A stretch of 64,000 nt of DNA. It comes from Harriotta raleighana. Lineage: Eukaryota. Of the stretch, positions 51,001 through 54,000 are shown one piece after another (position 1 is the stretch's first letter; each line of letters begins with the position of its first letter). Location: positions 867,299 through 931,298 of the forward strand of contig JBNZDD010013597.1 of assembly GCA_050575255.1 (NCBI GenBank), written 5' to 3'. A program made the position numbers.

Positions 51001-54000
51001 CGTGAGATTGTGATGGACAACTCCAATCCATTGTTTGCCTTTGTCTTATGTTCTTACAGGAAAACCATTTCCATTAAAATAGTTGACCGTGGGGAATATG
51101 AAAAACAAGCCAGTTTCTTCATTGCACTTGGTGAACCTGTATGGATCAGACGAGGTGTGAGAGTAACAAAAGACATTTTGAGAATTGTTTTCTTCTCTGT
51201 TCGTGTCCTACTCTCACACTGACTTTCTCCTCTTACCTTGTCTAAAGCCTTTGCCATGCCTGACTGTTGGGTGTTTTTTCTGTGTTGTTTATGCCCATGA
51301 CTAATTTTAAACTGTCTTTGATGCTGTACGGATTCAAAAGTACTAAGATTCTGGTACAACAGTCCCAAATTTTATTTGTAAACACTAAACAATGTAATTG
51401 ATTCAACAAAAGTTTTGTTTTCATTCACAGTAAAAATCTAAATTACGAAATTATCTTATGCCCACAGTGAATTACATTGCCAAATTAACTTATTTTTCTG
51501 GTTGAAAAAAACAGATTAATGATCATTTTGAAAGCGAGAAATCAAGGATTTTAAGAAGGCAAATTAAATTTAGGTTGCTCTTAGGGATTTTATTTCAACA
51601 TTTTACAGATATTGAGGAAACTGGTATGTAGGATGATTACCCATTGATGCTGAGTGTCTGCACATTTCTTGTCTGCACAGAATTAACCAGAAGTTACAAA
51701 ACTACCCCTACACATTTGAAAATAATTTCACAAGGGAAACCTGAACTTTTCTCTCTTTCTGTAATGCTTTTATTACTTTACATTCAGTTCTTTACTTTGC
51801 TCACTGTTCTGTATTTCCTTTTCTTACAGCCTTATTGTTGAATGAGTTAGGTAAGCTGTCTACCCTTTCTGACTTTTTTTGCTGTGTACGTTAGCCATAA
51901 CATGATAGCTATAAACATAAATGCGATGGGGTCCTATAGGCTAGTAATTCCATTTAGATTAGATCTAAAGCATTTCATCATAGTTCTCCTAAATTCAATT
52001 TCCCCAGTAACTCACTGGATAAATTCAATACTATACGTGTTGTGGATCCCTAGTCAGCCCTGAGTTAGCTGATTACAACTGGGCACAGTAGCAGTAGTAT
52101 AATTGACCTTGCCATCCTTGAGAGAGTGAGAGAGGAAGTCAGTTGGGATTCTTTACTCCTAATCGCTACCCAATAAGCCCAGTGGAAACTGTTTATGTGT
52201 GGATTTTGGCTGTGCATAGTATATGTGGATTTTGGCTATGCACAGCATCAGACGCAGCTGGGATATACTGTACCCCACGGTTGAATAGCTGCCAACAGTC
52301 GCTGTATTGGTTGCTACATAAAGAACAGCTGCTCAAGCAAAGTTCTAGTGAACCATGCACTGCTGATGTGTAACTATTCCCCAACCACCTTCAGAACCAC
52401 CTTCAGGAGAGGAGGCTTGAGGGAGGATAGGCAGAGGGACAAACTAAAATCTCTCATATTCCTTTATGTTTCATTGTGTTTTTAAAAAAAAAACATAGGG
52501 AAACTAAAACAACCATGGTTGTAGTAGGATCCATTAGGGCTAGGGTGGAAATCAATATTTCTTCCCTTCATTTAGGTCATTGTGCCATTCCCATCCCTTG
52601 TTTACACCCACTCTCTTATTTTAAATAATGCTTCACATATTCTGTTTGTTTCTTTCCTTTCTTTTGTTAGTTTGTCTTGTCTTAAGCTCTTGGTCAGTCC
52701 CTTCTGTCTTGTACATTTGAATCAGACACTGTGGGATTAAGAAATTGATTAGCTCATACCCCAGATGTGCTCTACACTTTTAACAATTTGCTTATCAGAG
52801 AACCCAGTCCGAGTTTAATCCTCAACCAGATTTTACACGCAAAGAGCAGTTAGTGATACTGTTCTGTACTAGTAACTGCTGAGGCATAAGATGTTTAGAA
52901 TCTCATTTTAGTTTAGTTAATGATACACATGGACAGTTGTGTGTGAGCTGATTAAGATTCCCTCTCCCTCTGCAGTAATGGGTGAGTATGTAGAGCTGCC
53001 TGCATAATTGCCCGATTTTCTCAGTTTGCAAATGGAGCACAAATAAGCCTAGCTGGACATTAACTTTATCTCTTTTGGGATTTGTTTCCTTTTCAAAGAT
53101 GCTTCTTTTCAAACAGATTTAGGAAGAGTTTGTACCAGTTTGTTTTCAAATTTAGAGGTATCTGAAACTAATCACTCAGAGCATTGTTCCACCTGATGCC
53201 AATGTCGGCAGTGGTTGGGACCACTGCCATCTCTGCCTTTAGTGGCCTGTGTGGTGGTCACCAAAGTGGGAAACCAGTAAACATAGGATGGCAATGTGCT
53301 ACCTCTCACCAAGCAGGAAATCCTGGTTTCACTGCACTAAATTTAGCGCTTAGAGATTACAAGAAAGTAAGATTTCTCTGCCTTATATAAAAAGTACAGT
53401 ATGATGTTGCTGAAACAATATTTTTTTTATGTTATTACTAATAGGAGGCTTCACAAAGACAGGTATGAGACTCTGCCTATTGAATTTCAATTTGCTTACC
53501 AATTTTTTATATTTTCTGTCCCTTCTGTATTTATAACCATACTGATCAATTTCTTTGTTTTTTTAAAATCTTTTTCCCTCTTTTTCTGAAGGAAAATACT
53601 TCAGTGGTAAGATTTTATTAAATTCTCTTGAATTGCCTCGGCACTCTTTAATCACAAACCTTAAGACAGCAGATAAACATCACAGCACTTTGTAGTTGTT
53701 TGAAGTACTGCAGCATAAGTAGTCTTAATGTATATTTTTATATCTTCACTATAATTGGTAAAACTTGGTAGACACTTTAATATCTAACATTTAAATAATA
53801 AAGCAGCCATAAAACGTATTTATTAGATTATCAAATTACTTTATTAACCCCAAAATAATGGATTTTTAAAAACTTTTGGGTGAATGGATTCTGAAAATTA
53901 AATCATTTGCTGTGGATTATTTCCCTATTTTTAGGCCAGTCTATCTACAGGAAGGTTCATTTTAGGGACAATCCAGTCCCATCTACTGTCATCTGCTTTG

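What the first reader, a model, noticed from the sequence alone, without database searches (positions are those of the whole stretch)
51609..51623. Candidate extra microexon (DIEET) in the NCX1 CBD2 splice cassette
Seen: between exons B and C lies TTTTATTTCAACATTTTACAG|ATATTGAGGAAACTG|GTATGT. It has strong splice sites, is 15 nt, is phase 1-1 and has no stop codon, the same design as exons C-F. Established: the mammalian cassette has only exons A-F, which tune the CBD2 F-G loop. As I recall, an extra exon X was reported in frog cardiac NCX1, so lineage-specific additions have a precedent. Inference: this is a seventh cassette exon adding three acidic residues near the CBD2 Ca2+ sites. It might offset the shortened exon B (B+x gives WIRRDIEET).
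Basis: partly seen in the sequence, partly recalled or inferred. Interest (0 to 1): 0.72.

Follow-up and report, generated by a model that had tools for sequence, protein, structure and literature searches.

The report
Unproven 15-base microexon candidate in NCX1
A 15-base stretch with good splice signals sits in frame inside the alternatively spliced part of a chimaera fish's sodium/calcium exchanger gene, but nothing yet shows that cells ever use it as an exon.

Summary
The sequence is as described: window 51609-51623 is a 15-nt, stop-free, phase 1-1 segment between a CAG acceptor and a GTATGT donor. It lies in the 675-nt intron between exons B and C of an NCX1 (SLC8A1-type) gene. The window is not human. 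It comes from a holocephalan close to, but not identical with, Callorhinchus milii.

Its splice sites are as good as those of the real cassette exons. Look-alikes are uncommon: 0.07-0.12 are expected by chance in the 3.4 kb of cassette introns, and one other was found in about 124 kb outside the cassette.

There is no positive evidence of use. None of 190 named NCX1 proteins holds DIEET. In 37 of 37 proteins with exon C, it follows A or B directly. That negative is weak, because the window's own species is absent from the protein set and the current C. milii models seen skip C-F altogether.

Conservation and RNA evidence cannot be had with these tools.

Verdict: cannot tell. I lean towards an unused or trace-level pseudo-microexon (about 0.55). 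A true lineage-specific seventh cassette exon is about 0.3. If real, it is a new member of a known kind.

The parts
50404..50510 (+). NCX1 exon A (107 nt), one of the two mutually exclusive exons; ends in phase 1
   Evidence: its 35 codons are 100% identical to C. milii P0008.
51060..51154 (+). NCX1 exon B (95 nt), the other mutually exclusive exon. It ends at WIRR plus G, 9 nt short of the shark form (WIRRGMK).
   Evidence: 31 of 31 residues match C. milii isoform X5 (P0002). Read-through gives GVR, a relic of GMK.
51589..51608 (+). Candidate acceptor: interrupted pyrimidine tract ending in CAG. The best branch-point match (TTTTAT) has its A at -17.
   Evidence: pyrimidine fraction 0.75 over -20..-5. 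The branch-point reading is by eye against the yUnAy consensus (recalled).
51609..51623 (+). Candidate microexon x: 15 nt, phase 1-1, no stop. It would add D-I-E-E-T, and its last G starts the next codon.
   Evidence: No RNA, protein or conservation evidence.
51624..51629 (+). Candidate donor GTATGT
   Evidence: 7 of 9 consensus positions; U1 duplex -6.9 kcal/mol, top 2.75% of 3598 GT sites.
51830..51850 (+). Cassette exon C (21 nt; ALLLNEL plus G)
   Evidence: Matches P0008.
53445..53462 (+). Cassette exon D (18 nt; GGFTKT plus G)
   Evidence: Matches P0008.
53592..53606 (+). Cassette exon E (15 nt; G-KYFS-G). A real exon of the same size and phase as the candidate.
   Evidence: C. milii P0008 has KCFS here.
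53935..54003 (+). Cassette exon F (69 nt)
   Evidence: 88% identity to P0008.
60911..61041 (+). First constitutive exon after the cassette
   Evidence: 88% identity to C. milii, which shows that the window comes from another species.

Best explanation
Most likely this is a pseudo-microexon. By chance, an acceptor-like and a donor-like motif lie 15 nt apart, in frame and without a stop, in the A+T-rich intron between exons B and C of a holocephalan NCX1 gene. The spliceosome either ignores it or includes it only at trace level, so it is not an established seventh cassette exon.

Shown: the sequence, its frame, and the strength of its sites relative to the real exons. Also shown: how rare such look-alikes are, and that no annotated relative carries the insert. 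Inferred: that it is not used. The grounds for that inference are as follows. Exons this short are normally skipped unless dedicated intronic enhancers help. None of the enhancers I could look for is present. A 1-in-10 coincidence is not rare for a reader who was searching this very region for such a pattern.
For: 1. No protein evidence.
- 0 of 190 named NCX1 proteins from three searches hold DIEET, DIEE or IEET.
- In 37 of 37 with exon C, it follows the end of A or B directly.
- These include the C. milii A-C-D-E-F model P0008, the Scyliorhinus canicula X1 A-C-D-E-F model, and Cetorhinus, Carcharodon, Mustelus, Mobula, Pristiophorus and Heterodontus.
- The 15-nt exon E is present in the C. 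milii and S. canicula models, so annotation pipelines can capture exons of this size in this gene.

2. Chance is not negligible. Markov nulls give 0.07-0.12 expected look-alikes per 3.4 kb of cassette introns at thresholds set by the candidate itself. At slightly looser thresholds (6 of 9; 0.6875) they give 0.7-0.9.

3. The acceptor is the weak side.
- Its pyrimidine runs are at most 4 long, broken by A's.
- The only yUnAy match lies at -17.
- No UGC lies between it and the AG.
- Passages of bioRxiv 10.1101/2024.09.17.613571 describe regulated microexons as having strong pyrimidine and branch-point signals set far from the AG, with a UCUC...UGC enhancer in between.

4. No supporting feature nearby.
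- There is no GCATG in 50300-54300.
- There is no Rfam match in 49000-55000.
- The local RNA fold is weaker than that of shuffles, z = +1.55.
Against: - Outside the cassette the real window has fewer look-alikes than the nulls predict: 1 on the + strand and 0 on the - strand in about 124 kb.
- Of the four + strand hits at the candidate's thresholds, three lie within the 3.4-kb cassette, and one of those is real exon C. That clustering is not expected by chance.
- The donor and acceptor scores equal or beat those of several real exons of the same gene.
- The core GAGGAA is purine-rich, the kind of sequence that often acts as an exonic enhancer (recalled, not tested).
- The encoded residues are acidic, like the neighbouring disordered segment.
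- The negative protein evidence is weak, for four reasons:
  - The window's species is not in the protein set.
  - The current C. milii representatives seen (X2, X3, X5) skip C-F entirely.
  - Two cluster members could not be listed.
  - Only cluster representatives among the best 120 hits of each search were seen.
- Lineage-specific extra exons do occur in this cassette, in anurans and in predicted turtle isoforms.
Confidence: 0.55

Rival explanations
1. It is a genuine, lineage-specific (holocephalan or narrower) seventh cassette exon. It would be spliced in after exon A or B and before C, D, E, F or the constitutive exon, all of which share phase 1. It would insert D-I-E-E-T at the very start of the cassette-encoded, unfolded part of the CBD2 FG-loop.

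[quoted passage not shown] There it would shift Ca2+ affinity and off-rates, and so the regulatory set-point of the exchanger in the tissues that include it. All functional steps are inferred.
For: - Position, strand, phase, length class and open frame match exons C-E exactly. Exon E is also 15 nt.
- The splice sites fall within the range of the real exons.
- The chance expectation is only 0.07-0.12 for the cassette and 0.015-0.024 for this intron.
- There are precedents for lineage-specific additions:
  - an anuran 9-11-residue insert between E and F in named Xenopus laevis, Bombina and Pelobates proteins;
  - a predicted 6-residue insert between D and E in Trachemys and Chrysemys.
- Passages of PMC9820601 say that Drosophila CALX1.1 and CALX1.2 differ by only five residues in the same loop. 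They also say that adding cassette exons stepwise changes Ca2+ affinity and dissociation.
Against: - No transcript, protein or conservation evidence of any kind.
- The acceptor is the weakest part and lacks the enhancer layout typical of regulated microexons.
- The thresholds behind the chance estimate were set after the fact.
- No report of such an exon turned up in the paper searches.
Confidence: 0.3
2. It is a non-coding splicing-control element. A paired acceptor-like and donor-like site would recruit U2AF and U1 within the B-C intron and so influence the choice among B, C and downstream exons, without itself being joined into mRNA at useful levels.
For: - Two strong splice-site pairs that are not annotated exons lie within the 3.4-kb cassette: this one, and a 6-nt one at 52976-52981 whose donor is in the top 0.06% of GT sites. 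The surrounding roughly 124 kb holds only one such site.
- That is more clustering than the nulls predict.
Against: - Pure inference. No binding, conservation or functional data.
- The clustering could equally mean that one or both are real exons.
- It could also mean that local composition differs from the window-wide model.
Confidence: 0.08
3. The same donor is used with an acceptor further upstream, giving a longer in-frame exon. One example is 51585-51623, 39 nt, which would encode GILFQHFTDIEET.
For: - The candidate's reading frame stays open for 41 codons, 51506-51631.
- An AG at 51583-51584 lies in register.
Against: - That acceptor has a poorer pyrimidine context and another AG just upstream.
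- A hydrophobic 13-residue insert has no counterpart in any of the 190 named proteins.
- A 41-codon open frame is not unusual in this window (one search lists many).
Confidence: 0.03

Closest known systems
NCX1 cassette exons C, D and E of the same gene (window 51830-51850, 53445-53462, 53592-53606)
   Same: - Same strand and same phase (1-1).
- Length a multiple of 3 and at most 21 nt.
- All end in G before a GT donor.
- Splice-site scores in the same range.
- Exon E is exactly 15 nt.
   Different: - C, D and E are present in named proteins from sharks to mammals. The candidate is in none.
- Exons C and E have far cleaner pyrimidine tracts (0.875 and 1.0, against 0.75).
Anuran extra NCX1 exon (the 'exon X' of frog heart, recalled from Iwata et al. 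1996 and Shuba et al. 1998; neither paper was seen)
   Same: - A lineage-specific, in-frame cassette exon added to the A-F set.
- Seen here as an extra 9 residues in named X. laevis isoforms X1, X2 and X3, 9 residues in Bombina bombina, and 11 in Pelobates fuscus.
   Different: - It lies between E and F, not between B and C.
- It is 27-33 nt, not 15.
- It shows no sequence likeness.
- It has transcript support, which the candidate lacks.
Predicted turtle insert between exons D and E (Trachemys scripta X1, Chrysemys picta X21)
   Same: A 6-residue, lineage-restricted, in-frame addition inside the same cassette.
   Different: - It sits at a different place and has different residues.
- It is known only from automatic models, and I did not check its support.
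Drosophila CALX1.1 / CALX1.2 splice difference
   Same: A five-residue difference within the CBD2 FG-loop, as told in passages of PMC9820601. It is the nearest functional analogue of a 5-residue insert.
   Different: - It is an insect orthologue whose CBD2 binds no Ca2+.
- The exon is not homologous.
- The residues were not compared here.

Membership tests
NCX1 (SLC8A1) CBD2 cassette exon | Lies on the coding strand between the mutually exclusive exons A/B and the first constitutive exon downstream | tested here: met
   The exon map places 51609-51623 between B (ends 51154) and C (starts 51830).
NCX1 (SLC8A1) CBD2 cassette exon | Phase 1-1, length a multiple of 3, no in-frame stop, so that any combination of cassette exons keeps the frame | tested here: met
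   (D-I-E-E-T-G). The last base is G, as in exons A-F.
NCX1 (SLC8A1) CBD2 cassette exon | Canonical AG and GT with strengths in the range of the known exons | tested here: met
   donor 7 of 9 and -6.9 kcal/mol; acceptor pyrimidine fraction 0.75. The scoring is crude, and no trained splice-site model was on hand.
NCX1 (SLC8A1) CBD2 cassette exon | Present in mRNA or protein isoforms | tested here: inconclusive
   0 of 190 named proteins hold it, and 37 of 37 with exon C have it directly after A or B. But the window's own species is absent, and cluster members could not be listed. No read or transcript collection is on hand.
NCX1 (SLC8A1) CBD2 cassette exon | Exon and splice sites conserved in related species | not testable with these tools
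   The genome collection on hand holds only bacteria and archaea, so no holocephalan or shark intron could be fetched.
SRRM3/4-type neuronal microexon | Exon of 3-27 nt with a strong donor | tested here: met
   15 nt, with the donor in the top 2.75-4.5% of GT sites.
SRRM3/4-type neuronal microexon | UCUC...UGC enhancer between a distant branch point and the AG (feature taken from passages of bioRxiv 10.1101/2024.09.17.613571) | tested here: not met
   the only UGC within 50 nt upstream lies at about -33, before a CUCUU, and none lies between the -17 branch-point match and the AG. The 6-nt site at 52976 does show this layout.
Anuran NCX1 extra exon | Lies between exons E and F and encodes about 9 residues | tested here: not met
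   Searches place the frog insert after exon E. The candidate lies between B and C and encodes 5 residues.

The most novel reading that the evidence does not exclude
Chimaeras have added a seventh, 15-nt cassette exon to the NCX1 splicing array. It puts three acidic residues (DIEET) at the head of the CBD2 FG-loop, next to the primary Ca2+ sensor of CBD1. It may have arisen alongside the 9-nt shortening of exon B that the window shares with Callorhinchus. Together with the 6-nt site at 52976-52981, the holocephalan cassette could hold eight exons. That would give a natural experiment on how very small inserts tune exchanger regulation.
Probability: 0.3. Interest if true: 0.45.

Novelty: not a real feature. 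Interest (0 to 1): 0.27.

Why it matters
If the exon were real, it would show that the NCX1 cassette keeps gaining lineage-specific microexons, as frogs have done. It would also offer a natural 5-residue acidic insert for testing how the start of the CBD2 FG-loop affects Ca2+ sensing at the CBD1-CBD2 interface. Reviews describe that question as being settled only exon by exon (passages of PMC9820601). That would interest exchanger and splicing-evolution specialists, but it would not overturn anything.

If it is a pseudo-exon, as I think more likely, it is an ordinary intronic coincidence. Its value is then as a caution: good splice signals, the right phase and an open frame within a known cassette arise by chance about once in ten such regions.

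Tried and rejected
**Protein searches, exon by exon**
I repeated it with the same reference read on into the intron (53 aa).
- The constitutive exon was searched, and exon A plus 7 read-through codons.
- None returned a protein with the insert. None returned any protein of the window's own species.
- In one search the read-through tail (GG...) pulled isoforms that join A directly to D to the top. An A-x-C form might therefore have ranked below the 120 listed.

**Steps that could not be run or were left out**
The structural effect of the insert was therefore not modelled.
- I considered searching with the 41-codon open frame around the candidate to fish for the same intron in other species' contig-derived ORFs. 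I dropped the idea because the frame has no usable start codon and would not have been called as a protein.
- For the same reason I did not spend the single job against the representative library.

**Other explanations checked and found empty**
- Repeat or transposon origin: no repeat family covers 51500-51700, and the string is unique in the window.
- Non-coding RNA: no Rfam match in 49000-55000, and no tRNA in 45000-64000.
- Stable RNA structure: z = +1.55.
- RBFOX-type GCAUG sites: none in 50300-54300.

**Literature**
- Searches found no report of an extra NCX1 exon in cartilaginous fish.
- They also did not find the original frog papers.
- PMC2408596 says that the elephant shark data of 2008 were too fragmentary to use.
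Full report
**What the window is.**
- The last 14 kb of the window hold the alternatively spliced part of an NCX1 (SLC8A1-type) sodium/calcium exchanger gene on the + strand. The first 50 kb are intron.
- Local tblastn with named Callorhinchus milii and Pristiophorus japonicus proteins, together with direct reading, gives this exon map:
  - A 50404-50510
  - B 51060-51154
  - C 51830-51850
  - D 53445-53462
  - E 53592-53606
  - F 53935-54003
  - next constitutive exon 60911-61041
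- Exons A and B are identical in protein to C. milii 'sodium/calcium exchanger 1b'. The constitutive exon is only 88% identical.
- I therefore take the contig for a holocephalan (chimaera) other than C. milii, not for human.
- No protein of the window's own species was in the searched set.
- The N runs were left alone.

**The observation.**
- It is correct to the base. The acceptor ends in CAG, the 15 nt at 51609-51623 follow, and the donor is GTATGT.
- In the phase used by all cassette exons the segment reads D-I-E-E-T, and its last G starts the next codon.
- So is the remark that exon B is shortened. The window and C. milii isoform X5 end exon B at WIRR, whereas five shark species have WIRRGMK.
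- Read-through of the window still gives GVR. The old donor evidently decayed, and a GT 9 nt upstream took over.

**How good are the signals, and how often does this happen by chance?**
- The donor matches 7 of 9 consensus positions. Only 163 of 3598 GT sites in the window do as well. It pairs with U1 at -6.9 kcal/mol, in the top 2.75%, beside -7.2 for real exons D and F and -5.3 for B.
- The acceptor has 12 of 16 pyrimidines over -20..-5 and C at -3. That class covers 3.7% of 3942 AG sites. It equals exon F and exceeds exon D and the constitutive exon.
- I scanned both strands for AG-(6 to 30 nt, in steps of 3)-GT with phase 1 open, at the candidate's own thresholds. This gave four hits on the + strand and none on the - strand. 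The four are the candidate, real exon C, a 6-nt site at 52976-52981 and one decoy at 17863-17877.
- Sequences drawn from Markov models of order 1, 3 and 5 trained on the window give 1.4-2.3 hits per 64-kb strand. That is 0.07-0.12 for the 3.4 kb of cassette introns and 0.015-0.024 for the B-C intron.
- The configuration is thus uncommon but not rare, roughly one in ten for a reader combing this cassette.
- Two caveats apply:
  - The thresholds were set after the fact.
  - The filter is no good classifier, since it finds only exon C of the three real microexons. D needs a looser pyrimidine cut, and E has A at -3.

**Evidence for use.** None could be found.
- Following the instruction to search a spliced model exon by exon, I searched three queries:
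  - the constitutive exon;
  - exon A with 7 read-through codons.
- I left out every joined step. No A+x+C or B+x+C peptide was searched or folded, so the effect on structure is argued from the literature only.
- The searches stored 237 proteins. I set 47 unnamed ones aside, leaving 190 named.
- None of the 190 holds DIEET, DIEE or IEET. Of the 37 that carry an exon-C motif, all 37 have it directly after the end of A or B.
- Among cartilaginous fish these include:
  - the C. milii A-C-D-E-F model P0008;
  - the Scyliorhinus canicula X1 A-C-D-E-F model;
  - Cetorhinus, Carcharodon, Mustelus, Mobula, Pristiophorus and Heterodontus.
- This negative is weak, for four reasons:
  - The window's species is missing.
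  - Only cluster representatives among the best 120 hits per search were visible.
  - The current C. milii representatives seen (X2, X3, X5) skip C-F altogether.
  - The members of their clusters could not be listed.

**Other readings of the spot.**
- No repeat family covers 51500-51700.
- There is no Rfam match in 49000-55000 and no tRNA.
- There is no stable RNA fold, z = +1.55.
- ORFs on the opposite strand are 23-32 codons long.
- The candidate's frame stays open for 41 codons. A longer exon using an upstream AG is therefore conceivable, but it has a poorer acceptor.

**Features expected of regulated microexons.**
- Passages of bioRxiv 10.1101/2024.09.17.613571 describe strong donors, and strong pyrimidine and branch-point signals set far from the AG. 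They also describe a UCUC...UGC enhancer in between.
- The candidate has the strong donor but not the rest:
  - Its pyrimidine tract is broken.
  - The only branch-point match lies at -17.
  - The nearest UGC is at about -33, upstream of it.
- No GCAUG occurs in the whole cassette.
- By contrast, the 6-nt site at 52976-52981 shows exactly that layout, CCCTCTCCCTCTGCAG before it and GTGAGT after it. Its donor is in the top 0.06% of GT sites.

**What it would do if real.**
- Passages of PMC9820601 place exons A and B on the loops that coordinate Ca2+ in CBD2.
- They place the cassette exons C-F in the unfolded part of the FG-loop, close to the Ca3-Ca4 sites of CBD1 and to the interdomain linker.
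- They say that adding cassette exons stepwise raises Ca2+ affinity and slows Ca2+ dissociation at CBD1.
- They also say that Drosophila CALX1.1 and CALX1.2 differ by only five residues in that loop.
- An insert right after exon A or B would therefore sit at the head of the FG-loop. This is inference.

**Precedents.**
X. laevis isoforms X1, X2 and X3 carry 9 extra residues between E and F. Bombina also carries 9, and Pelobates 11.
- Trachemys and Chrysemys models carry 6 extra residues between D and E.
- The original frog papers were not in the library, and I cite them from memory only.
- PMC2408596 (passages) lists only A-F across vertebrates. It says that elephant shark data were then too fragmentary to use.
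- Searches found no report of an extra NCX1 exon in cartilaginous fish.
- Supplementary tables were not read, and those of the preprint are closed. They may list microexons per species.

**Weighing.**
- The chance expectation is about 0.1. My prior, from two of roughly eight vertebrate lineages with an extra exon, is that perhaps 0.1-0.25 of lineages have one.
- That leaves the odds near even before the negatives.
- The weak acceptor, the missing enhancer layout and the (weak) absence from annotated relatives tip them towards a pseudo-exon.
- My estimates are:
  - unused or trace-level pseudo-microexon, 0.55;
  - true lineage-specific cassette exon, 0.30;
  - splicing-control decoy, 0.08;
  - longer alternative exon, 0.03.
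- The clustering of three of the four + strand hits inside the cassette is the one observation that the pseudo-exon reading does not explain well.

**Verdict.**
The interpretation can be neither supported nor refuted with the tools on hand.
- If true, it would be a new member of a known kind, a modest gain for specialists.
- RNA junctions and a holocephalan intron alignment would settle it quickly.

Noticed in passing
window 52976-52981 (+), in the C-D intron: A second microexon-like site, and on its signals a better one. It is 6 nt (TAATGG), preceded by CCCTCTCCCTCTGCAG and followed by GTGAGT. The acceptor has pyrimidine fraction 0.875 with a UGC next to the AG. The donor gives -12.3 kcal/mol with U1, in the top 0.06% of 3598 GT sites. 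In phase 1 it would add V-M between exons C and D. No named protein shows such an insert.
   Followed up: partly
window 51155-51163 (+): Exon B ends 9 nt earlier than in sharks (WIRR against WIRRGMK). Read-through still gives GVR, a relic of the lost codons. C. milii isoform X5 shares the short form, so the donor shift appears to be common to holocephalans.
   Followed up: partly
named proteins P0074, P0078, P0081, P0097 (X. laevis), P0071 (Bombina), P0024 (Pelobates); P0120, P0123 (turtles): Lineage-specific inserts occur inside the same cassette. Anurans have 9-11 residues between E and F. Predicted Chrysemys and Trachemys isoforms have 6 residues between D and E.
   Followed up: partly
window 19884-20086 and 38248-38718: Two exact or near-exact tandem duplications (101 nt at 99%, 235 nt at 100%) each flank a single N (19985, 38483). 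They look like assembly joins rather than biology. I left them untouched.
   Followed up: no
window about 55040-56530 (+), in the F-to-constitutive intron: A run of long open frames with reverse-transcriptase-like wording (for example 55500-56003, 167 codons) suggests a decayed retrotransposon. It sits beside a G+C-rich, G/A-skewed stretch at 54400-55100 that is repeated in inverted form at 39930-40440. I ran no family search on it.
   Followed up: no
window-wide, e.g. 30-104, 11137-11195, 16773-16831, 39623-39697, 54386-54444, 63842-63900; also 22715-22771 and 45763-45819: Several families of short interspersed repeats occur in both orientations. One has a tRNA-like head. None overlaps the candidate.
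   Followed up: no
window 59184-59475: An imperfect TG/TC-rich microsatellite-like array lies in the last cassette intron.
   Followed up: no
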